From a virus, in the UHGV virus genome UHGV-0179848: a DNA stretch of 39,611 nucleotides; one strand, written 5' to 3'. The notes beneath the pieces were generated by a model. It did no database searches, was not told the origin of the DNA, and saw only the letters and a list, made by a program, of their open reading frames with translations. A program made the translations under genes and the position numbers. Positions within the stretch are counted from its first letter, which is position 1. The number at the start of each line of letters is the position of its first letter. Below, in pieces: positions 8,143 through 39,611 of the stretch.

Positions 8143-9218
8143 GTGATTTCCCCCACGGTCAGCAACTCTGTATCTCCGGCCATCACGGATTTCAGCGGAC
8201 TTCGAACGTCAAAATCTTCCAGTCCTTTCACCCCTGCAACAGCCCGCCAGAATGATGAAGGCAGCACCAGTCCACCCGGCCGCGATTCGTTATAAAGCAG
8301 GTCCGTTAATGCCTGTTTTACGGCAGCCTGATTTTCCGGCGTTTTGGGTACAATCCTTATCTCAAACACCACCGGCTTATTGGTCAGCTTAAACACGCTG
8401 ATTGTCGGCCCAAGTGGCTGACCAACGGGCTGGCCCGTCGCCGGATCATCATGACTGCGGATATAATCCGCCACCCGCTTCACATCACCTTCCCCGGGGA
8501 AAATGTCAGGGTTATTATCCTGAACAAAAGTCACACCAACACTACCAGCCTCAGGCCATTCAGGCTTACACCATGCCCGCGTCACGCCAGGTACTTCCCG
8601 TGCCCAGCGTTCAAAATCATACTGTGTTCCCCCTGATGGCGGGTTCTGTACCCGGAATACCAGCCTGGACAGCAACTCCGGCACCGTTTCCACATCCGCA
8701 CCACCGGTGAGTCCCGTGCCGGTGACCGTGGCTGTCTGGTTGATGCCCGCCTGTGGTGTGATAAAGGACAGGCGGGTTCCGGTCGGGGTATTTCCGGCGC
8801 GCCCCGCACTTTCCGCCTCCACATTAACATTCAGTGTTCCGGCTTTTCCGGTCGCAGAGCCAGTGATGCGGTACACAACACCATCGCTTCGCTGAAGGAG
8901 TACGCCTTCCGTGATCCCTGCATCCGTGGTCAGCATCAGTTGTACCGGTCCGTCAGCGCGGGAAGCCGGTTTACGGATGACACCCCAGAATGCGCAGTGT
9001 TTCAGGAGTTCGGCTTCATCAGCTTCTGTCGGAATTATCTGCCGGGAGATCCAGGCCAGATGTTCATGCTCCTGTGCTGACAGCCCCGCCTGTGCATACG
9101 CAATGGCATTCAGGGTGGTTTCATTCACGCCCGGCTGCGAACCGGGCAGGCGCTGGCTGATATCCTGTTGTGTCTGTGTGATCAGTTGCGCCAGTGGTAA
9201 GGGCTGATAAGGCATCAT
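8133..9218 (-). CDS. Baseplate J-like protein (Mu gp47-like)
   Basis: 361 aa, size and position as Mu W; overlapping starts and stops with neighbours. Confidence 0.8.
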   Translation of the reverse strand: MMPYQPLPLAQLITQTQQDISQRLPGSQPGVNETTLNAIAYAQAGLSAQEHEHLAWISRQIIPTEADEAELLKHCAFWGVIRKPASRADGPVQLMLTTDAGITEGVLLQRSDGVVYRITGSATGKAGTLNVNVEAESAGRAGNTPTGTRLSFITPQAGINQTATVTGTGLTGGADVETVPELLSRLVFRVQNPPSGGTQYDFERWAREVPGVTRAWCKPEWPEAGSVGVTFVQDNNPDIFPGEGDVKRVADYIRSHDDPATGQPVGQPLGPTISVFKLTNKPVVFEIRIVPKTPENQAAVKQALTDLLYNESRPGGLVLPSSFWRAVAGVKGLEDFDVRSPLKSVMAGDTELLTVGEITWL

Positions 9219-18057: not shown

Positions 18058-18473
18058 ATGAAGCCCTTCTGGTTGCGCCCGAATACCGCCGCATCAGACT
18101 GAACCTGTGGTAAATCCCCGGATTCAGGGGCCGCACCGTTCGTATCCACACCGACCGGCACATTGCCGTTCATGACATCTTTCAGCCAGGCCAGCGCTTC
18201 GCGGTAACGGTCACGCGCCTGATCGGAGGCTCTCTGATCGCACAGGTAATAAAAGGCAATCGCGCAACAGTGCTGAACAAGAACTGCCGGAATAACCTCC
18301 AGCGGCAGCGTGTAACGGGCGGACAGATAGCTGTCGATAAGGGCTGACGCATCTGTCAGCGCCCGGTTCAGCTTGCGCGTGTCCGGCTCATCCGAACGGG
18401 GCACTGCCAGTAACGGCCTGAGCAAATCCTCGCGGTAACGCGCCCGCATATCGGTTTCAGTGGCGTAATTCAT
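18054..18473 (-). CDS. Head-tail connector protein (Mu gp36-like)
   Basis: 139 aa; synteny with Mu J. Confidence 0.7.
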   Translation of the reverse strand: MNYATETDMRARYREDLLRPLLAVPRSDEPDTRKLNRALTDASALIDSYLSARYTLPLEVIPAVLVQHCCAIAFYYLCDQRASDQARDRYREALAWLKDVMNGNVPVGVDTNGAAPESGDLPQVQSDAAVFGRNQKGFI

Positions 18474-18889
18474 GCGTGGGCCTTTTTCGCCTGTTTCGCT
18501 TTGTTACCGGTCTTTTTCCGGGGAGCATCCTGTCCGGCTTCGGCTTCGGCTTCGGCTTCGGCTTCGGCTTCGGCTTCGGCTTCGGCTTCGGCTTCGGCTT
18601 CGGCTTCGGCTAAATCTGTACCGGCCACTGCATGAACCACACCCGCCACGCTCCCCGCATCATCAGCAGGCGTCTGTAGTATTCGCACAGTGAGGCATGG
18701 CTCCGCCTCCAGTCGGGCAAGCTGCTCCGGGGTGACCTCAACCTGCTGACGTCCACGCGTGAACAGGAACCCCGCACGACGAAACGCCGAACGACTGCAA
18801 CGCACTTCTGCCAGCACCGTGACAGAATTGTCACCACTGACCTGAAGACCTGAATCATCTGTTGCTGCCACAGTGTGATGTTCATTCAT
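18470..18889 (-). CDS. Hypothetical head-region protein with (Ala-Glu)n repeat and Lys-rich C-terminus
   Basis: 139-aa ORF between major capsid and gp36-like genes; about 13 AE dipeptides encoded by a hexanucleotide microsatellite. Confidence 0.6.
   Translation of the reverse strand: MNEHHTVAATDDSGLQVSGDNSVTVLAEVRCSRSAFRRAGFLFTRGRQQVEVTPEQLARLEAEPCLTVRILQTPADDAGSVAGVVHAVAGTDLAEAEAEAEAEAEAEAEAEAEAEAEAGQDAPRKKTGNKAKQAKKAHA
18535..18610. repeat. Tandem hexanucleotide repeat (GGCTTC/GAAGCC), about 12.5 copies
   Basis: Perfect repeat directly visible; in frame within the 18470-18889 gene. Confidence 0.95.
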
Positions 18890-21654: not shown

Positions 21655-21776
21655 ATTGCCTCCGTGAAACTACCTGGTTAAAATAAAAGCAGGTCGGTGT
21701 ACTCTTAACTGGTAAAGCGGCGCCTGATGGTTTTTTCCTGAGGGATGTTTATGCGGGTTCGACCCCCGCCACCGAC

Positions 21777-23102
21777 CTACAATTCACCCTCCAGTAATTC
21801 CAGCTTTCCACCGCGCAGATCATCAAGTAATGCCTCCTTTTTGACTCTGTAGGCATTAATCACCACATCCAGCTTATCCGGCTGACGTTTCACACTATAA
21901 GGCGCATTGACGGCAATCTTTGCCGTTCCGTCACGGGTTTCAGTGATGTAAAGCAGATTCTGATGGACATGATCCCACAGCACGGCATCAGGCGCGGCTA
22001 GCATTGCCGGTAATCGCCCGAAATCCTCCGGCGTCAGGGCAATGCCGTCATTCTGATGTTTCACGCTGTCCGCATGGAGCACATTTTTACCGCTCATCGC
22101 CAGCAGGCGGGCCGGTGGCGTTCCCGTCCGGCTTTCCACCGCCTGCGCAATACTTTCGGTCATAAAGCCCAGCGTGCGGATATCGTGACCACCTCGCCGG
22201 GTCTTCATGATGTTTTTTGCCCAGATGCGGAACGCCAGCTGCCGCTCCGGGCTGTTGTTCATCTCCTGAACCACCATTTCCCGTAACGCCGGGCTTTTCA
22301 CCTCGATCAGTTTACGGATCAGCGCCTGGTCTGTGCCGAACGCCGCCGAACCGGGGTTATATGACCAGCCCACATCCGGTGTCATGGTTCTGGTGCCATC
22401 TGAATATGTGGTCACCGGCATTTCTCTGACTTCTCCGGTCTGCTTATCCACGCCAGCCTCAACATTGCGGGTGGAGAGATGATCCTGACCGGATGAAACG
22501 GATAACCCCATTGCATCCAGACGGGCCTGAGATAATGGCCGGACACGGCAGCGGCAGTTCCAGCCATTGGGCGGGTAGTGTGTATTCCAGAACGGATCGT
22601 CATAGCGGAATACCAGCCCGTTAAAGGCGGAATGTGCCGGGCGGGTGCGGCTGTCCATCACCGCCACATACTGCCAGAACGGATGCGTGTCCGTGTTGTT
22701 CATCATCTGCGTGTAACGCCCGGCATTGTAAGCCACACGGGTGTTCACGTTGTAAATCAGCGCCAGACGGCGGGGACTGCCCAGCTGCACTTCTTCCGCG
22801 TTACCGGCACTGTCCACCACAATCTGTTTTCCCCACCATCCCAGCTTTTGCAGGCGGGGTGTCAGCGTGCGAATAAATGCTTTCTGTGAAATCCCCTCAT
22901 CAACAGCACGCTGCACTTCCGCCTGTAGTGTGGTCAGTACGTCCAGGCGTGCCACTTTTGCCGCCGTGAATGAACGGGCATGAACATCCGCGTCTGTTTC
23001 GAACCAGTTCCAGCTGATATGCGCCCCTTTGGCGCGGAAGTATGCCACCGCCTCTTTTGAGGGAAGCGTGGCGGCATAACCCAGATCAATCCCCTGTGCC
23101 AT
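21777..23102 (-). CDS. Head morphogenesis protein (Mu F / gp30-like)
   Basis: 441 aa downstream of portal. Confidence 0.8.
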   Translation of the reverse strand: MAQGIDLGYAATLPSKEAVAYFRAKGAHISWNWFETDADVHARSFTAAKVARLDVLTTLQAEVQRAVDEGISQKAFIRTLTPRLQKLGWWGKQIVVDSAGNAEEVQLGSPRRLALIYNVNTRVAYNAGRYTQMMNNTDTHPFWQYVAVMDSRTRPAHSAFNGLVFRYDDPFWNTHYPPNGWNCRCRVRPLSQARLDAMGLSVSSGQDHLSTRNVEAGVDKQTGEVREMPVTTYSDGTRTMTPDVGWSYNPGSAAFGTDQALIRKLIEVKSPALREMVVQEMNNSPERQLAFRIWAKNIMKTRRGGHDIRTLGFMTESIAQAVESRTGTPPARLLAMSGKNVLHADSVKHQNDGIALTPEDFGRLPAMLAAPDAVLWDHVHQNLLYITETRDGTAKIAVNAPYSVKRQPDKLDVVINAYRVKKEALLDDLRGGKLELLEGEL

Positions 23103-28400: not shown

Positions 28401-28901
28401 TCAGACTTTCGGCAAATCGTAGCGACATAACCATTCATCCGCCGAACGGCGGGCCTCAAGACCGGGGAGTTTCACCCCCTTCGAATAAATCCAGCGGATG
28501 TACTGCTTACAGGACGCGGGCATCTGCCCGGCATTGATCAGGCGCAGAAGCGTGGAGTTGCGGAAGTTCGTTTCACCAGCCCAGAAGATCCACGAAGCCA
28601 GCGCCACCGTCTGACCACGGGTAAGCGGCACCTGAACACGCCGATCAATGGCCGCAAAGGCCCATTTCATGTCCTTTTCCAGTAGTTCCAGGCATTCTTC
28701 ATCCGTCAGGGTCATACCCGGTTTCACATCCGGGCCGGTATGGCCGTAACAGATGGTTGGTGTACCGGTGGGATCGATATACGTGGAGTTTTCTTTCCCT
28801 TCCCAGTAACCGGTGTAATGCGTGGTAATGGTGAACGTCCCGGCACCGGCCAGAACAAGGGCAATCAGCTTTTTACGCAGTGGTGCGGGGAGTTTTGGCA
28901 T
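28401..28901 (-). CDS. lys: SAR endolysin (phage lysozyme, GH24-like)
   Basis: N-terminal signal-anchor-release segment LIALVLAGAGTFTITT followed by lysozyme catalytic region YWEGKENSTYIDPTGTPTICYGHT. Confidence 0.85.
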   Translation of the reverse strand: MPKLPAPLRKKLIALVLAGAGTFTITTHYTGYWEGKENSTYIDPTGTPTICYGHTGPDVKPGMTLTDEECLELLEKDMKWAFAAIDRRVQVPLTRGQTVALASWIFWAGETNFRNSTLLRLINAGQMPASCKQYIRWIYSKGVKLPGLEARRSADEWLCRYDLPKV

Positions 28902-28972
28902 TGTTACGCTGTCTCATGATGTTCTCTGAGTCAGCGTAACGGTGAAGGAAAGGCGGCAGGCTTTGCGGAATA

Positions 28973-29395
28973 TCAGAAAAGTGGCGGTTGCGTTCTTGCC
29001 AGATGCAGACGGCGCTGTTCGCGTATGACGGTATAAATCTGGGTTTCTGACATCCTGTAATGGCGGCGCAGGGTTTCAATTTTTTCGCCCTGGCTCCAGC
29101 GGGAAAAAATCTCATTATTGCGCAGTTCGGTGAAAAGGGATTCACCGACCGGGAGATAATAACCACGCCCGCCCATGTACCCGGCCTGTGCGGCCGCAAC
29201 TTTACGGGCAAGCATTCCTGCCTGAGCAGGTTCAATCCCCTGACGGTGCAGTTCAGCACTGATCACATCAACCAGGTCCCGCAGCGTGCCGGGCCAGTTC
29301 TTTTTCAGCTCATCATCAGGAATGTCATCCAGACGGTCAATCAGCGCGTGCAGCTGTTCGCTGTCACCAAACATGCTCATCTGTGTTTCAGCCAT
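28973..29395 (-). CDS. Mor/C-family transcriptional activator (only family member in window)
   Basis: 140 aa with C-terminal HTH region resembling Mu Mor; sits between early region and lys. Confidence 0.75.
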   Translation of the reverse strand: MAETQMSMFGDSEQLHALIDRLDDIPDDELKKNWPGTLRDLVDVISAELHRQGIEPAQAGMLARKVAAAQAGYMGGRGYYLPVGESLFTELRNNEIFSRWSQGEKIETLRRHYRMSETQIYTVIREQRRLHLARTQPPLF

Positions 29396-29437
29396 ACCCG
29401 CCTCCGGTCATCATTACACAGGGCAAGTTTAAAATAA

Positions 29438-29461
29438 AAATCCCGCGCTGTGGCGGGATTT
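29438..29461. terminator. Stem-loop terminator, copy 1 of a duplicated hairpin
   Basis: AAATCCCGC-gctgtg-GCGGGATTT, 9-bp perfect stem, A-run upstream and T after. Confidence 0.5.
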
Positions 29462-29735
29462 AGAGGCGCTGTAAATCATAACCCGAAATGAGCTGTGTAT
29501 TTATTGATCATTTTCCGGTGTAACTATATGATAAAGATCGTTTTTATTTTTAAAAATACAAACCCTGAAGGAGTTTTTCTTATCAAAAAGCTTGTGCATA
29601 TTGCGGGTTATTGTTGTTTCATCAACATGAAAACCAATTATCCCAACTCTTAAAGCACACCAGGCTTGCTCCAGTGCAAAAACAAATAATTTCAGTCTGC
29701 CTGACAGCGTTCCACCGGAATAAAGGAAGATATCC

Positions 29736-30158
29736 ATGAAACAACCTCCATCTTTGCTTTTATCGTGCCCACCAGAACTGGCCCATGAACTCAATGATCT
29801 GGCGAAAGAGTATAAACTTACAAATCATAATATAGAAGCAGCAACACTTAGTGCTGCCGGAAGCGATATTGTATTGATCGTTCTGGCCGCAGCTTCATGC
29901 GATGGGTTCTGGCAGGCATTAGCCAGTATGTTTCAGACGTGGTTACATCGTAAACCAACAAAACAAACACCCCCGGAAAAGAAAGTTATTCGTAGCGTCA
30001 TTGTTCGTAGCTGGGAACACTATCAGGAGACAACTAAACAAACTGAATTTTATAACTTTGATGCTGATGAGCTGGCTAAATTGATAGCGTTATATGAAAA
30101 ACCAGATGAAACAATTGGTTGCATAATCCCGTCAGAAACGGAAATTCAGGAAAAATAA
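29736..30158 (+). CDS. Moron protein of unknown function (140 aa), opposite strand to all neighbours
   Basis: AAGGAAG Shine-Dalgarno upstream; preceded by ~270 bp AT-rich promoter-like DNA; stop codon abuts hairpin copy 2. Confidence 0.6.
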   Translation: MKQPPSLLLSCPPELAHELNDLAKEYKLTNHNIEAATLSAAGSDIVLIVLAAASCDGFWQALASMFQTWLHRKPTKQTPPEKKVIRSVIVRSWEHYQETTKQTEFYNFDADELAKLIALYEKPDETIGCIIPSETEIQEK

Positions 30159-30182
30159 AATCCCGCACTGTGGCGGGATTTG
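30159..30182. terminator. Stem-loop terminator, copy 2 of a duplicated hairpin
   Basis: AAATCCCGC-actgtg-GCGGGATTT; flanked by A-run and T-run so could act on either strand. Confidence 0.5.
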
Positions 30183-30184
30183 GG

Positions 30185-30694
30185 TTAACAGGGGAATGAT
30201 TTTTCATACAGCCTGCAAACGCGCTCATAACTCATCACTGCACGCTCCGACATATCCAGGGCTGCCAGCATTTTGCGGCGGTGCCAGCGTTTGAGACGCT
30301 CCAGCACATCAGAGGCCAGCTCGGGGTGTTGCTCCAGCCACTGCCAGTTAGCCACACCTTCGCCGCCGTTCTGCGCGGCCGTCTGCGATTGCACCCAGCG
30401 GTTAAGGGCCGTTTCCGCACCATCAGAAATAAAGCCCTGCCGGTGCATCACTTTCCAGATGGCGCGAATTTTGGCGGTCACCGTACCCGGCTTTAAGGCC
30501 CGGTTAACCGGTTTCTGACGCACTTTAAAACCGCGTTTTTTGAAAACATCCAGTACGCGGGATAACTCATCCGGTGACATATCCCGGCAACTGGCTTTAC
30601 CGGTGGCTGCCAGCAGTGCGGATGTATAGGTTTCATCATCCAGAGCAAGCTCGCGTTTTGCCACATGAATGGCAGATATCAGTTTTCCTCTCAT
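30185..30694 (-). CDS. GemA/gp16-like early protein
   Basis: N-terminus MRGKLISAIHVAKRELALDDETYTSALLAATGKASCRDMSPDELSRVLDVFKKRGF resembles remembered Mu gp16 family proteins; sits just before mor as in Mu. Confidence 0.55.
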   Translation of the reverse strand: MRGKLISAIHVAKRELALDDETYTSALLAATGKASCRDMSPDELSRVLDVFKKRGFKVRQKPVNRALKPGTVTAKIRAIWKVMHRQGFISDGAETALNRWVQSQTAAQNGGEGVANWQWLEQHPELASDVLERLKRWHRRKMLAALDMSERAVMSYERVCRLYEKSFPC

Positions 30695-31002
30695 ACCGTA
30701 TTTACCTTTTTACGGACATGGAAAGCCTTTTCTGGCTCATTCCACCGGATATGATGCGTTGGCGGAATAATCATTATGTGCCAGCCATCTCTGGTTGTTA
30801 TTCGGCAGAAAAACTCACCGTTGTATAACACAATGGCCTGCTGAATAAGCGCATCCGCAGCCAGCTCAAGCAGATATCTTTTATCAAAAAGGCTGATAAT
30901 TTTCCGGCATAACCACCGGGTGATAACAAATGCGCCGAAAAACGATGTGATATATAAACACCAGAACAGCAGAGAAATATTGTCCGTTATTTGCTCATCC
31001 AT
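30691..31002 (-). CDS. Hypothetical small membrane protein (103 aa)
   Basis: Hydrophobic N-terminal segment LLFWCLYITSFFGAFVI; coupled to neighbours. Confidence 0.45.
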   Translation of the reverse strand: MDEQITDNISLLFWCLYITSFFGAFVITRWLCRKIISLFDKRYLLELAADALIQQAIVLYNGEFFCRITTRDGWHIMIIPPTHHIRWNEPEKAFHVRKKVNTV

Positions 31003-38561: not shown

Positions 38562-38810
38562 TCATGACGCCTTTCTCATATAGCTCTTAACCTGGTATCT
38601 GCTGGGCCAGATTTCTTCAGGTGACACACCAAGAGCATCAGCAATTATTTGTTGATATGGGCGGCAAGGGGTGCGTAATACGCTTTTCAGCGAATCCCTG
38701 CTGTAACCAGCCTTTAAAGATAAAGAGCGCAGTGATAAGCCAGCCATGTGCAGGCGCGCCTTGATGATTTCTGGCGGCCAATCGTGATCTGAAACTTCTC
38801 TTCTACTCAT
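38562..38810 (-). CDS. ner: Ner-like DNA-binding regulator (Nlp/Ner family)
   Basis: KARLHMAGLSLRSLSLKAGYSRDSLKSVL...QQIIADALGVSPEEIWPSRY parallels Mu Ner. Confidence 0.85.
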   Translation of the reverse strand: MSRREVSDHDWPPEIIKARLHMAGLSLRSLSLKAGYSRDSLKSVLRTPCRPYQQIIADALGVSPEEIWPSRYQVKSYMRKAS

Positions 38811-38976
38811 ACTTCCTCTATTCTAAAAAGTTACCCGCACGGATATTCGGACGGATATCTGTACGGGTAAACGATAGAACAAGAAAAGAACCAAATCAAG
38901 GTATTTTGTTCTTTTTGTTCTTTATATTGTTTTCATCAATAAAATCAATTAGATAAGCGCGAAGGAACCTAAAGGC
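38811..38976. promoter_or_regulatory. Divergent early/repressor promoter-operator region
   Basis: 166-bp AT-rich gap between divergent repressor and ner starts; palindrome TTACCCGCAC...GTACGGGTAA (38821-38860) with internal CGGATAT direct repeat; inverted pair AGAACAAGAAAAGAAC / GTTCTTTTTGTTCT (38875-38911). Confidence 0.6.
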
Positions 38977-39561
38977 ATGAACATGAAAAAAAGTTCTTTT
39001 CTTGACGAAGGAAAAGAACCAGTAATCGAGCGAATATTTCGCCTTGCAGAGCGTTACAAATCGAGAAGTGAGGCGGCTAGGGCCTGGGGAATCAATATTC
39101 AGACATTGCAGAACTATTACAAAAGGAGAAACAATCAGCCACCACCACAGCCAAGAAAGCACCATCTCCAGAACATTGCTGAAAAAGAACATGTATCAAT
39201 GGAGTGGCTAATCTATGGTTATAATAATGAGTCAATCACAAAAAAAGAACTATTAGAACAAATAGAAAGAACAAAAAAACAAGATGTAAATGATGGTGAC
39301 TCCATCATCATGAGGGCGTGGGACTCGCTAACTTCATCTGAACAAGAGATTTTGTCCAATTTATTGATCAGAAAAGGGGCCGAGTTACTAACCATTTTAC
39401 TTGATACTGATATTCAAAAGCTGCACTCATTGAGTGGGGTCAAAAGAGCATTGGCATTGAGTCTGCAAGAGTTACCCGATGATACTGTAAGAGAGATTTA
39501 TGAAGAATGTGAGGCTAAGGTTAATCATTTAAATGTAACCCAGAAAAAGGCCGGTGCGTAA
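38977..39561 (+). CDS. Prophage repressor, CI-type HTH domain (Mu c-equivalent position)
   Basis: Divergent from ner-A-B; N-terminal IERIFRLAERYKSRSEAARAWGINIQTLQNYYKRRNN...SMEWLIYG resembles phage CI-repressor HTH domains. Confidence 0.7.
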   Translation: MNMKKSSFLDEGKEPVIERIFRLAERYKSRSEAARAWGINIQTLQNYYKRRNNQPPPQPRKHHLQNIAEKEHVSMEWLIYGYNNESITKKELLEQIERTKKQDVNDGDSIIMRAWDSLTSSEQEILSNLLIRKGAELLTILLDTDIQKLHSLSGVKRALALSLQELPDDTVREIYEECEAKVNHLNVTQKKAGA

Positions 39562-39611
39562 GGGAGTAGTGCAAATTTTGTGCTGTGGCACACTCCTTTC
39601 AATACGGACTG

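What the first reader, a model, noticed from the sequence alone, without database searches (positions are those of the whole stretch)
29431..30185. Opposite-strand moron between gemA and mor, flanked by a duplicated terminator hairpin
A single 140-aa gene on the plus strand, with ~270 bp of AT-rich upstream DNA, sits between the GemA-like gene and mor. It is bracketed by two near-identical ~31-bp copies of the same hairpin (29431-29461 and 30151-30182, one mismatch in the loop). This looks like a gene cassette inserted at an ancestral intergenic terminator. Its product has no family I recognise; it is a candidate lysogen-expressed exclusion or defence factor.
Basis: partly seen in the sequence, partly recalled or inferred. 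Interest (0 to 1): 0.65.

Follow-up and report, generated by a model that had tools for sequence, protein, structure and literature searches.

The report
Hairpin-flanked gene cassette in Mu-like prophage
A 0.7-kb block of foreign, low-GC DNA carrying two back-to-back genes of unknown function sits between two copies of one terminator hairpin in an E. coli Mu-like prophage, at a spot where related phages carry nothing or other small genes; it shows clearly how phages swap accessory genes, but what these two genes do is still unknown.

Summary
A 140-aa + strand ORF (29736-30158) lies between a GemA gene and a Mor/C-family gene, bracketed by two copies of one hairpin that occurs nowhere else in the prophage. 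Comparison confirms insertion at an ancestral hairpin: of 231 E. coli genomes with this junction, 4 carry this cassette, 2 carry a different one between the same hairpins, and every other sampled row has about 70 bp with one hairpin. Across related Mu-like phages the site holds at least four cargo types and once an IS element. Identity breaks exactly at the hairpins: same backbone, different cassette; same cassette, different backbone.

Two corrections. The "270 bp AT-rich upstream DNA" very probably encodes a second gene, a 78-aa basic protein on the minus strand (29501-29737) whose ATG overlaps the 140-aa ATG; its positional counterpart in the sister cassette family is under strong purifying selection. 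The hairpin's U-tract follows it only on the minus strand, so it terminates the phage early operon, not the cargo gene.

A conserved sigma-70-like promoter with two GATC sites points into the 140-aa gene through the small gene's antisense strand. Both proteins are near-orphans; structure prediction failed. A defence or exclusion role remains untested.

The parts
28973..29395 (-). Left flank: Mor/C-family transcription activator gene (140 aa). It is the only annotated Mor/C gene of the prophage, sits directly upstream of the lysozyme gene, and its best characterised match is Mu C.
   Evidence: Pfam PF08765, E = 1e-30; tblastn 40% identity to Mu C; RefSeq annotation.
29431..29461 (-). mor-side hairpin copy. 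The core is 29438-29461 (AAATCCCGC GCTGTG GCGGGATTT). On the minus strand it is followed by UUUUUAUUUU.
   Evidence: Repeat D1; minus-strand terminator-like site; folding energy -13.4 kcal/mol on the minus strand; identical to the single hairpin of empty sites.
29500..29545 (+). Conserved non-coding block holding a sigma-70-like promoter that points towards the 140-aa gene. -35 TTGATC at 29504-29509, 17-nt spacer, -10 TATGAT at 29527-29532. GATC sites at 29506-29509 and 29536-29539.
   Evidence: Promoter scan; unique in the window; present with the same geometry, 201-204 nt before the + strand ATG, in all six A- and B-type cassettes; 5% divergence between L162 and L163 against 15% in both genes.
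29501..29737 (-). Second cassette gene: 78-aa basic protein (pI 8.7), same orientation as the phage early operon. Its ATG (29737-29735) overlaps the 140-aa ATG within the tetranucleotide CATG.
   Evidence: ORF list; RefSeq CDS WP_024192020; 3 synonymous to 1 non-synonymous change against L005; positional counterpart in B-type cassettes with dN/dS 0.07-0.13 and codon-position bias 7/3/19; global similarity to B-type small proteins z = 3.6.
29745..29749 (-). Shine-Dalgarno GGAGG for the 78-aa ORF, 7 nt before its ATG. It lies inside codons 4-5 of the 140-aa ORF.
   Evidence: Read directly from the sequence.
29736..30158 (+). 140-aa acidic protein gene (pI 5.2), a near-orphan. Its stop codon lies in the A-tract of the gemA-side hairpin copy. 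It has the same orientation as the prophage repressor gene.
   Evidence: dN/dS 0.32 against L005. An in-frame 75-nt deletion variant exists. Distant similarity to the B-type 111-113-aa proteins: global z = 5.3, 0 of 2000 shuffles. ORF-length p of about 0.001.
30151..30181 (-). gemA-side hairpin copy. The core is 30158-30181 (loop ACTGTG). On the minus strand it is followed by UUUUAUUUUU. It is intact in every cassette type seen.
30185..30694 (-). Right flank: GemA (gp16) family gene, the last gene before the hairpin in the direction of early transcription.
   Evidence: Pfam PF06252, E = 1.3e-29; RefSeq annotation.

Best explanation
This is an exchangeable accessory cassette (a moron) sitting in a recombination hot spot. 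The hot spot is the hairpin that ends the early operon of an E. coli Mu-like prophage, between gemA and the single Mor/C-type activator gene.

Shown:
- The ancestral state is about 70 bp with one hairpin.
- The cassette is about 40% GC DNA bounded by two copies of that hairpin.
- At least four unrelated cargos, and once an IS element, occupy the same site in related phages.
- Cassettes and phage backbones recombine independently, with break points at the hairpins.

Inferred:
- Gain, loss and swapping happen by recombination between hairpin copies. The repeat is 24-31 bp, which is about the minimal length for RecA-dependent homologous recombination in E. coli (my own knowledge).
- Each flank keeps a copy because the hairpin serves the phage itself, as the early-operon terminator or attenuator on the minus strand.

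The cargo here is a two-gene module, not one gene. A 78-aa basic protein gene runs with the early operon. A 140-aa acidic protein gene runs the other way. Their start codons overlap.

Inferred expression logic: a conserved sigma-70-type promoter with two GATC sites lies at the 3' end of the small gene. It would transcribe about 200 nt of antisense to the small gene and then the 140-aa gene. In a lysogen, where the early operon is repressed, the 140-aa protein would be made. After induction, early transcription reading through the gemA-side hairpin would run antisense to the 140-aa message and express the 78-aa protein. This is a mutually exclusive, excludon-like pair.

The biochemical role is unknown. 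My best guess is a lysogen-expressed exclusion or defence-type factor plus a lytic-phase partner that neutralises it. Sub-confidences: hairpin-bounded swappable moron 0.85; second gene real in this cassette 0.7; the antisense expression logic 0.4; defence or exclusion function 0.3.
For: - Site occupancy in E. coli: 231 genomes carry the junction. 4 have this cassette at 100% identity, 2 (M1 and M3) have another cassette between the same hairpins, and all other rows sampled evenly down the ranking span the empty-site length.
- Empty-site sequences with a single hairpin.
- Further cargo types C and D, with empty sites in the same lineage. An IS element in the hairpin loop.
- Mosaicism. Window vs M3: gemA 99.8% identical, cassette interior 49%. 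Window vs L005: cassette interior 97.4%, gemA 91%, next genes 63% and 44%.
- Hairpin orientation.
- Second gene: B-type small ORF dN/dS 0.07-0.13 and codon-position bias 7/3/19. Window vs L005, 3 synonymous to 1 non-synonymous. GGAGG 7 nt before the ATG. RefSeq annotates it. Both ORF lengths occur together in 0 of 20000 shuffles.
- Promoter block: conserved with fixed geometry and more conserved than the coding DNA.
- A- and B-type proteins distantly related: z = 5.3 for the large proteins and 3.6 for the small ones.
- Charge complementarity: pI 8.7-10.4 for the small proteins against 4.8-5.2 for the large ones.
- The 140-aa gene has the same orientation as the repressor gene.
- Precedents: morons are expressed from repressed prophages and some encode exclusion proteins (PMC3594210). 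Opposite-strand overlapping genes in Mu-like phage Fc02, one on the lysogenic and one on the lytic transcript, both showed exclusion activity (PMC9936078).
Against: - There are no expression data. The promoter is a 9/12 consensus match whose function is inferred only from conservation.
- Profile comparison of the A- and B-type proteins is not significant (hhalign E = 0.028 and 0.05). The claim that the 78-aa ORF is coding therefore rests on positional equivalence, only 4 substitutions, and a permutation z of 2.5-3.6.
- The gemA-side hairpin, and a further terminator-like stem on the minus strand inside the 140-aa ORF (29859-29839), could stop early transcription before it reaches the small gene.
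- The 140-aa gene is found frameshifted, IS-disrupted and internally deleted in different samples, so it is dispensable and may be decaying.
- No defence, toxin or exclusion family matches.
- The mor-side hairpin copy is truncated or altered in other cassettes. Simple reciprocal recombination between intact hairpins is therefore not the whole story.
Confidence: 0.6

Rival explanations
1. This is a single-gene moron. Only the 140-aa gene is real. The 274 bp upstream hold a promoter plus a long 5' leader, and the 78-aa minus-strand ORF of this cassette is a chance or decayed reading frame.
For: hhalign between the window's 78-aa ORF and the B-type small proteins is not significant (E = 0.05), and BLASTP finds nothing. 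Only 4 substitutions are available to judge selection. The similar N-termini (M-D/N-I-F/V-L-Y) are forced by overlap with the other gene's ribosome-binding region. The small-protein family has only 4 clusters in 5.8 billion proteins.
Against: In the sister B-type cassettes the ORF at exactly this position is clearly coding (dN/dS 0.07-0.13, codon-position bias 7/3/19). In the window it keeps an open 78-codon frame in 36.5% GC DNA and has a perfect GGAGG 7 nt before the ATG. It shows 3 synonymous to 1 non-synonymous change. It is intact even in a copy where the 140-aa gene is frameshifted. Global similarity to the B-type small proteins gives z = 3.6, or 2.5 without the constrained N-terminus.
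Confidence: 0.2
2. This is a toxin-antitoxin-like addiction or abortive-infection pair. The small basic, partly hydrophobic protein would be a toxin and the larger acidic protein its antidote, or the reverse. The pair would stabilise the prophage or kill infected cells.
For: Charge complementarity: pI 8.7-10.4 against 4.8-5.2. Hydrophobic cores with Kyte-Doolittle 19-residue maxima of 1.5-1.9. The two genes are tightly coupled and co-inherited in both the A and B families. Antisense overlap of the two transcripts would give RNA-level control.
Against: There is no match to any toxin or antitoxin family in Pfam, NCBIfam or PADLOC. The genes are divergent, not co-transcribed as in type II systems. 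Copies survive with the 140-aa gene disrupted but the small gene intact, which argues against the 140-aa protein being an essential antidote. The reverse assignment is not excluded.
Confidence: 0.12
3. The two-hairpin, occupied state is ancestral. The common one-hairpin state arose repeatedly by deletion between the direct repeats. The cassette would then be an old phage gene pair being lost, not a recent insertion.
For: Direct repeats of 24-31 bp promote deletion. The A and B cassettes are so diverged (about 20% amino-acid identity, synonymous sites saturated) that the module must be old. Different cassettes share short motifs next to the mor-side hairpin.
Against: The cassettes are about 40% GC inside roughly 55% GC phages. 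Four unrelated cargos occupy the site. The empty state dominates in every lineage sampled, including the distant Citrobacter-type lineage. Mu itself has no intergenic space between gemA and mor. The same cassette sits in different backbones. Loss certainly happens too, but it cannot explain the diversity of cargos.
Confidence: 0.1
4. This is non-functional passenger DNA: a decaying fragment captured by illegitimate recombination, with no current role for either ORF.
For: The gene pair is extremely rare. The 140-aa gene is found frameshifted, IS-interrupted and internally deleted. The prophage itself carries a gene with an internal stop.
Against: dN/dS is below 1 for the large ORF in both families (0.32 for the 140-aa gene against L005; 0.16 for the B-type large ORF, L162 against L163) and 0.07-0.13 for the B-type small ORF. 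The promoter block is conserved more strongly than the coding DNA. The module persists across E. coli and Salmonella phages with saturated synonymous divergence.
Confidence: 0.08

Closest known systems
Morons of temperate phages (HK97 gene 15 and others; Juhala et al. 2000; Cumby et al. 2012, PMC3594210)
   Same: Extra DNA between two genes that are adjacent in related phages, with deviant GC content, its own promoter-like element and a stem-loop at its end. Its orientation is compatible with expression from the repressed prophage, and some morons encode superinfection-exclusion proteins.
   Different: It has two genes with overlapping start codons on opposite strands, not one gene. The bounding stem-loops are duplicated copies of the phage's own hairpin and face the phage's transcription, not the cargo's. 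Expression and function are untested.
PeSL (promoter-early stem-loop) cassettes of T4-type phages (Arbiol et al. 2010, PMC2839356; PMC4122927)
   Same: Repeated regulatory stem-loops flank small orphan genes. Insertions, deletions and replacements between close relatives have their end points at those repeats. The paper shows that recombination between neighbouring repeats yields mini-circles, the same route I infer here for gain and loss.
   Different: PeSLs are composite promoter-plus-terminator motifs present in many copies in hyperplastic regions of lytic phages. Here the repeat is a bare 24-31-bp hairpin found at a single site (two copies), in a temperate transposable phage. The promoter belongs to the cargo, not to the repeat.
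Integron gene cassettes (attC hairpins)
   Same: Small cassettes ending in an imperfect palindrome, inserted at a site that itself carries the palindrome, so that occupied sites show a copy on each side, with many alternative cargos.
   Different: No integron integrase is present in the prophage. The hairpin is far shorter than an attC site. The cassettes carry their own promoters and opposite-strand genes. There is no array.
Excludon-type antisense loci, and the olg1 / gene 10 pair of Pseudomonas Mu-like phage Fc02 (PMC9936078)
   Same: Divergent or opposite-strand genes whose transcripts overlap, one belonging to the lysogenic and the other to the lytic programme. In Fc02 both products gave superinfection exclusion.
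   Different: In Fc02 the coding regions themselves overlap and lie beside the repressor/ner switch. There is no sequence similarity to the present proteins. For this cassette the transcripts are only predicted.
Mu early terminator / middle promoter region (mor-E18 intergenic region; PMC4287176, PMC4390567)
   Same: A terminator-shaped hairpin with a T-run ends the early operon just before the next regulatory gene. In Mu, mapping +1 from the published primer and mutant coordinates puts the Mor-binding element (-51 to -36) over the 5' arm and loop of that hairpin. The early/late boundary is thus a compact, multifunctional intergenic region.
   Different: Here gemA, not mor, precedes the hairpin, and a C-like gene follows it. 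The hairpin sequences are unrelated. The stretch equivalent to Mu's -10 (TATCCT) is GCCCTG here, so a Pm-like promoter is doubtful.

Membership tests
Moron (phage accessory transcription unit) | Present between two genes that are adjacent in closely related phages | tested here: met
   Empty gemA-hairpin-mor junctions in the great majority of related prophages.
Moron (phage accessory transcription unit) | Nucleotide composition differs from the neighbouring genes | tested here: met
   Cassette interior 39.6% GC against 54-56% for mor, gemA and lys (profile).
Moron (phage accessory transcription unit) | Own promoter | tested here: inconclusive
   TTGATC-17-TATGAT on the + strand is a 9/12 consensus match, but it is conserved in position and sequence in all six A- and B-type cassettes and diverges less than the coding DNA. 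Activity was not measured.
Moron (phage accessory transcription unit) | Own terminator downstream of the gene | tested here: inconclusive
   A stable hairpin directly follows the stop codon, but on the + strand only UUU follows the stem. The long U-tract is on the minus strand.
Moron (phage accessory transcription unit) | Expressed from the repressed prophage | not testable with these tools
   Needs RNA-seq or a reporter assay in a lysogen. The only evidence here is that the gene shares its orientation with the repressor gene.
PeSL-type mobile regulatory cassette | Composite promoter plus stem-loop motif repeated many times in the genome | tested here: not met
   The hairpin occurs only twice and only at this site. 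The promoter block occurs once and is not part of the repeat.
PeSL-type mobile regulatory cassette | Insertion, deletion and replacement end points between close relatives coincide with the repeats | tested here: met
   Identity drops from 99.8-100% to 49% exactly at the inner edges of the hairpins.
Integron cassette | IntI-type integrase and attI/attC recombination sites | tested here: not met
   No integrase of that kind is annotated in the prophage; the only recombinase-family protein lies next to the tail-fibre genes. The palindrome is 24 nt long.
Known anti-phage defence systems (PADLOC-DB) | Sequence match to a defence protein model | tested here: not met
   No hit at E <= 0.1 for any of the four large (+ strand) cargo proteins. 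The small proteins were not scanned against PADLOC.
Type II toxin-antitoxin pair | Two small adjacent genes co-transcribed as an operon, with matches to toxin or antitoxin families | tested here: not met
   The genes are divergent with overlapping starts. No family match in Pfam, NCBIfam or PADLOC. Only the charge complementarity fits.
EACC1 (effector-associated constant component; a lead from memory) | Match to the Pfam family model | tested here: not met
   No such hit, even at E <= 10, for the A- or B-type large proteins. Structure models were too poor to test the fold.
Mor/C family, for the flanking gene called 'mor' | PF08765 domain; orthology to Mu Mor as opposed to Mu C | tested here: met
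   The family match is met at E = 1e-30. The best hit in Mu is C (40% identity), the gene sits directly upstream of lysozyme as C does in Mu, and no second annotated Mor/C gene is present. It is therefore a Mor/C-family gene and more C-like than Mor-like.

The most novel reading that the evidence does not exclude
The early-operon hairpin of these Mu-like phages acts as a portable recombination site through which small self-contained modules are gained, lost and swapped as circles or by short-homology exchange. The module carried here would be a previously undescribed two-protein switch. An acidic 140-aa protein would be made in the lysogen from a Dam-sensitive promoter and would act against incoming phages. 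A basic 78-aa partner would be made only when the prophage's own early operon reads through, switching the first protein off at both RNA and protein level so that the phage does not inhibit itself.
Probability: 0.12. Interest if true: 0.75.

Novelty: new variant of a known kind. Interest (0 to 1): 0.5.

Why it matters
How morons enter phage genomes is still described as mysterious. A study of Pseudomonas Mu-like phages found no common flanking sequences at their variable regions (PMC4378225). Here the end points are unusually clear. One short hairpin is duplicated around every cargo. The site has empty, alternatively filled and IS-hit states. Cassettes and backbones are reshuffled exactly at the repeats. 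That makes a concrete mechanism, short-homology recombination at a terminator hairpin as proposed for T4-type PeSLs, directly testable in a temperate, transposable phage of pathogenic E. coli. The cargo is a conserved but orphan two-gene module with an unusual back-to-back antisense layout and a GATC-bearing promoter. It is a reasonable candidate for a new lysogen-expressed function, but nothing yet shows what it does.

Tried and rejected
1. Family assignment of the 140-aa protein failed in Pfam, PHROGs, PADLOC and NCBIfam, which gave only sub-threshold noise. PDB sequence profiles found nothing.
2. Wide homology searches found only near-identical copies. The search of 5.8 billion proteins gave 2 clusters. 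The exhaustive HMMER search of 1.84 billion representatives gave the same cluster (P0002), a truncated copy (P0003), and a spurious repeat-inflated match to a 1309-aa mucin-like protein, P0004, which I rejected.
3. AlphaFold2 gave mean pLDDT 51 from the single sequence and 40.7 with a joint A+B alignment. Foldseek against the PDB gave no hit with E < 1. I could not use structure.
4. The EACC1-like domain idea came from memory and no profile supports it.
5. Rfam found nothing credible in 28900-30750.
6. The 41-aa hydrophobic + strand ORF in the leader (29528-29653) shows 0 synonymous to 3 non-synonymous changes against L005, so I rejected it as a gene.
7. The GemA scan of genome contigs found nothing. 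The hairpin pattern scan of genome contigs was too unspecific, because this terminator shape occurs in many phyla. Only one hit, Citrobacter braakii L021, was useful.
8. hhalign could not establish homology between the A- and B-type proteins. Only the permutation tests support it.
9. I tested whether the hairpin is the activator-binding dyad of a Pm-like promoter for the C-like gene. Mu's Mor site does overlap its early terminator hairpin, but the -10 equivalent here is poor, so this stays an idea only.
10. Metagenome and viral scans for more distant relatives of the large protein returned only near-identical copies in the same context.
Full report
WHAT IS THERE. The window is a complete Mu-like prophage inserted in bcsA of E. 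coli. It is identical to STEC2018-607 (NZ_CP075697) over the 801-bp and 1722-bp junction queries compared, and the window-equivalent coordinates of that record carry the same ORFs. Almost all phage genes lie on the minus strand, running from ner, transposase A and B through gam and gemA to the lysis, head and tail genes and com/mom. The 140-aa ORF at 29736-30158 is on the + strand, like the repressor gene at 38977-39561. Its neighbours are a Mor/C-family gene (28973-29395, PF08765, E = 1e-30) and a GemA gene (30185-30694, PF06252, E = 1.3e-29). Two copies of one hairpin bracket the ORF at 29431-29461 and 30151-30181. The 24-nt cores differ at one loop base. The motif occurs nowhere else in the window, against 0.01 expected, and folds at -13 to -15 kcal/mol.

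IT IS AN INSERTION AT AN ANCESTRAL HAIRPIN. 231 complete E. coli genomes carry this mor-gemA junction. Only 4 contain the cassette, all at 100% identity. Strains M1 and M3 match only the two ends. In the 60 rows sampled evenly down the ranking, every row other than the two cassette carriers listed (STEC2018-607 and M3) spans about 940-1005 bp against 1722 bp here. Read directly, the empty sites (STEC299, and a Mu-like element inside Stx phages) have about 70 bp with a single copy of the same hairpin. M1 and M3 have a different 113-aa + strand ORF between the same two hairpin copies. Using Mor and GemA as anchors in the viral contigs, most loci are empty, with gaps of 76-106 bp. A more distant lineage (Mor 56-69% identical, Citrobacter-type) also has the hairpin. 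It is either empty or filled with two further cargos: a 106-aa and a 143-aa protein, each with an N-terminal signal peptide, the second belonging to phrog_15648 of unknown function. In one contig an IS element encoding a 445-aa transposase sits in the loop of the hairpin. All cargos are about 40% GC, point the same way and stop within about a dozen bases (0-12 nt) of the gemA-side hairpin. The phage genes around them are 54-56% GC.

CASSETTES AND BACKBONES ARE RESHUFFLED AT THE HAIRPINS. Window against M3: gemA is 99.8% identical, the next gene 99.0%, and the mor-to-hairpin stretch 100%, but the cassette interior is only 49%. Window against L005, a different Mu-like backbone: the cassette interior is 97.4% identical, but gemA is 91% and the next two genes 63% and 44%. 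The loop variant of the gemA-side hairpin travels with the backbone, not with the cargo. The gemA-side copy is intact in every cassette. The mor-side copy is complete in the E. coli cassettes, cut after GGCG in two Salmonella-type cassettes, and remodelled into a different stem (GGAAAA...TTTTCC) in types C and D. I infer that cassettes are gained, lost and replaced by recombination between hairpin copies, with some illegitimate joints on the mor side. The repeat length of 24-31 bp is about the minimum for homologous recombination in E. coli (my own knowledge). The nearest described mechanism is the PeSL stem-loop-mediated shuffling of T4-type phages, which includes mini-circle intermediates (PMC2839356). 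A study of Pseudomonas Mu-like phages found no common flanking sequence at its variable regions and called acquisition mysterious (PMC4378225).

THE HAIRPIN BELONGS TO THE PHAGE'S OWN TRANSCRIPTION. The long U-run follows the stem only on the minus strand (UUUUUAUUUU and UUUUAUUUUU). On the + strand only UUU follows it. The hairpin is therefore an intrinsic-terminator-like element facing the early operon after gemA. For the 140-aa gene it is at best a weak terminator. The gene to its left is more like Mu C (40% identity) than Mu Mor. It is the only annotated Mor/C gene in the prophage and directly precedes the lysozyme gene. In Mu, gemA and mor overlap and C lies further on. The hot spot is thus the early/late boundary. 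In Mu the corresponding boundary, the mor-E18 intergenic region, also has a terminator-shaped hairpin with a T-run. I mapped +1 with the published primer (+10 to -9) and the published wild-type bases (-57G, -56T, A3 tract at -55/-54). That places the Mor-binding element (-51 to -36) over the 5' arm and loop of Mu's hairpin (PMC4390567, PMC4287176). This suggests a reason for each flank keeping a copy: gemA needs its terminator, and the activator gene may need its upstream element. The -10 equivalent here is poor, so I leave this as an idea.

THE CARGO IS TWO GENES, NOT ONE. The 274 bp called upstream DNA contain a minus-strand ORF of 78 aa (29501-29737) whose ATG overlaps the 140-aa ATG within the tetranucleotide CATG. 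A GGAGG lies 7 nt before it, and RefSeq annotates it. The M3-type cassette has relatives at 54-61% protein identity in other Mu-like prophages at the same site. All of them have a 63-64-aa minus-strand ORF at the same position. That ORF is under strong purifying selection: dN/dS 0.074 between L162 and L163 and about 0.13 against M3, with substitutions falling 7/3/19 by codon position. For the window's own small ORF the evidence is thinner. It shows 3 synonymous to 1 non-synonymous difference from L005. It is intact in a copy whose 140-aa gene is frameshifted. ORFs of 140 and 78 codons together arise in 0 of 20000 shuffles. Are the two cassette types homologous? BLASTP and hhalign are not significant. 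The proteins do align colinearly, sharing AALS, W59, W69 and R72. Permutation tests give z = 5.3 for the large proteins (0 of 2000 shuffles). They give z = 3.6 for the small ones, or 2.5 without the N-terminus that is constrained by the overlap. I conclude that A and B are probably very diverged versions of one two-gene module. The 140-aa ORF itself is coding: dN/dS is 0.32 against L005, an in-frame deletion variant exists, and the ORF-length p is about 0.001.

REGULATORY LAYOUT. The A- and B-type cassettes share one non-coding block, TATTGATC...TATGATAA(A/T)GATC. This is a sigma-70-like promoter on the + strand: -35 TTGATC at 29504-29509, a 17-nt spacer, and -10 TATGAT at 29527-29532. It is unique in the window. 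It sits 201-204 nt before the + strand ATG in all six cassettes. It carries GATC in the -35 hexamer and again 4 nt after the -10 in five of the six. Between L162 and L163 it has diverged 5%, against 15% for both genes. A transcript from it would first run antisense across the whole small gene and then encode the large protein. Early-operon transcripts reading through the gemA-side hairpin would be antisense to the large gene and sense for the small one. That is an excludon-like, mutually exclusive arrangement. An experimental precedent for opposite-strand lysogenic and lytic gene pairs in a Mu-like phage is Fc02 olg1 / gene 10, both of which gave exclusion (PMC9936078). All of this expression logic is inferred, not shown.

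FUNCTION. Both proteins are near-orphans. The large protein has 2 clusters in 5.8 billion sequences and nothing more in an exhaustive HMMER search. The small protein family has 4 clusters. There are no matches in Pfam, PHROGs, PADLOC, NCBIfam or the PDB. Structure prediction failed. The small proteins are basic (pI 8.7-10.4) and the large ones acidic (pI 4.8-5.2), and each has a moderately hydrophobic core segment. This is compatible with a pair that binds each other, but it proves nothing. Every copy found lies at the same mor-gemA site. The large gene is sometimes disrupted by a frameshift, an IS element or an internal deletion, so it is dispensable. I put it at about 0.3.

VERDICT. The finding is real, and the reading of it as a cassette at an ancestral terminator is well supported. 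It is a moron in kind, so it is not categorically new. Three things are new or unusual. First, the end points are exceptionally clean: a duplicated phage hairpin, several alternative cargos, an IS hit and reshuffling at the repeats. Second, the cargo has a two-gene back-to-back antisense layout. Third, that layout comes with a conserved GATC-bearing promoter. Interest is moderate (0.5). It would rise if expression switching, hairpin-mediated excision or a phage-resistance phenotype were shown.

Noticed in passing
L187 3002-4486 (IMGVR_UViG_646311913_000007): An IS element encoding a 445-aa transposase is inserted in the loop of the same gemA-mor hairpin. The two arms are now 1447 nt apart. The hairpin therefore attracts transposition as well as cassette insertion.
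   Followed up: partly
L131, L141, L157 (106-aa cargo) and L144, L152, L161 (143-aa cargo, GTG start): In a more distant Mu-like lineage the same hot spot carries two other single-gene cargos, both with N-terminal signal peptides. The 143-aa protein belongs to phrog_15648 (unknown function). In these cassettes the mor-side hairpin copy is remodelled into a different stem (GGAAAA...TTTTCC) with apparently compensatory changes.
   Followed up: partly
L164 212-1385; L205 2501-2921; L006 79-426: Damaged copies of the 140-aa gene exist. One is cut by an IS element (DDE_Tnp_1 transposase), one has a frameshift near codon 80, and one has an in-frame 75-nt deletion between short direct repeats (CAAC.AAACAAAC). 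The 78-aa ORF is intact in the frameshifted copy.
   Followed up: partly
window 29506-29509 and 29536-29539: Two GATC (Dam) sites sit 30 nt apart, one inside the -35 hexamer and one just after the -10 of the conserved promoter block. Five of the six A- and B-type cassettes keep both. This hints at methylation-sensitive expression, as for Mu mom or IS10 (my own knowledge). Not tested.
   Followed up: no
window 29839-29859 (minus strand): A further terminator-like stem (9 pairs, 3-nt loop, then CTTCTATATT) lies on the minus strand inside the 140-aa ORF, between the gemA-side hairpin and the start of the 78-aa ORF. It could limit early read-through into the small gene.
   Followed up: no
window 28973-29395 and 28902-28972; Mu locus L206: The gene labelled mor is closer to Mu C than to Mu Mor and is the only annotated Mor/C gene in the prophage. 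The Mu segment mor-E18-E19-E20 has no counterpart here. The intergenic region before the lysozyme gene resembles Mu Plys (CTGCC.CC...CTG.C..CAGAGAA).
   Followed up: partly
L206 1174-1195 (Mu 9173-9194): In Mu, the Mor-binding element of Pm (-51 to -36, mapped from published primer and mutant coordinates) overlaps the 5' arm and loop of the terminator-shaped hairpin that follows mor. The early terminator and the middle-promoter activator site therefore share one compact region.
   Followed up: partly
window 1-402 and 18073-18492: The prophage interrupts bcsA (cellulose synthase), which RefSeq marks as a partial pseudogene. A gp436-family phage gene carries an internal stop, so the prophage may be defective.
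   Followed up: no
window 21690-21777: RefSeq annotates a 'tRNA-OTHER' on the + strand between head-morphogenesis genes. ARAGORN finds no tRNA or tmRNA anywhere in the window.
   Followed up: partly
L206 1-163 (Mu gp15, record 7896-8162): Mu itself has an opposite-strand ORF (gp15) immediately upstream of gemA. This is another opposite-strand small gene beside gemA, but on its other side. No relationship to the present cassette was examined.
   Followed up: no
window 401-800, 6401-6800, 38801-39600: Other low-GC stretches (38-41%) lie at the mom/com end, near the tail-fibre assembly and inversion region, and at the repressor end. These are possible further accessory or regulatory DNA.
   Followed up: no
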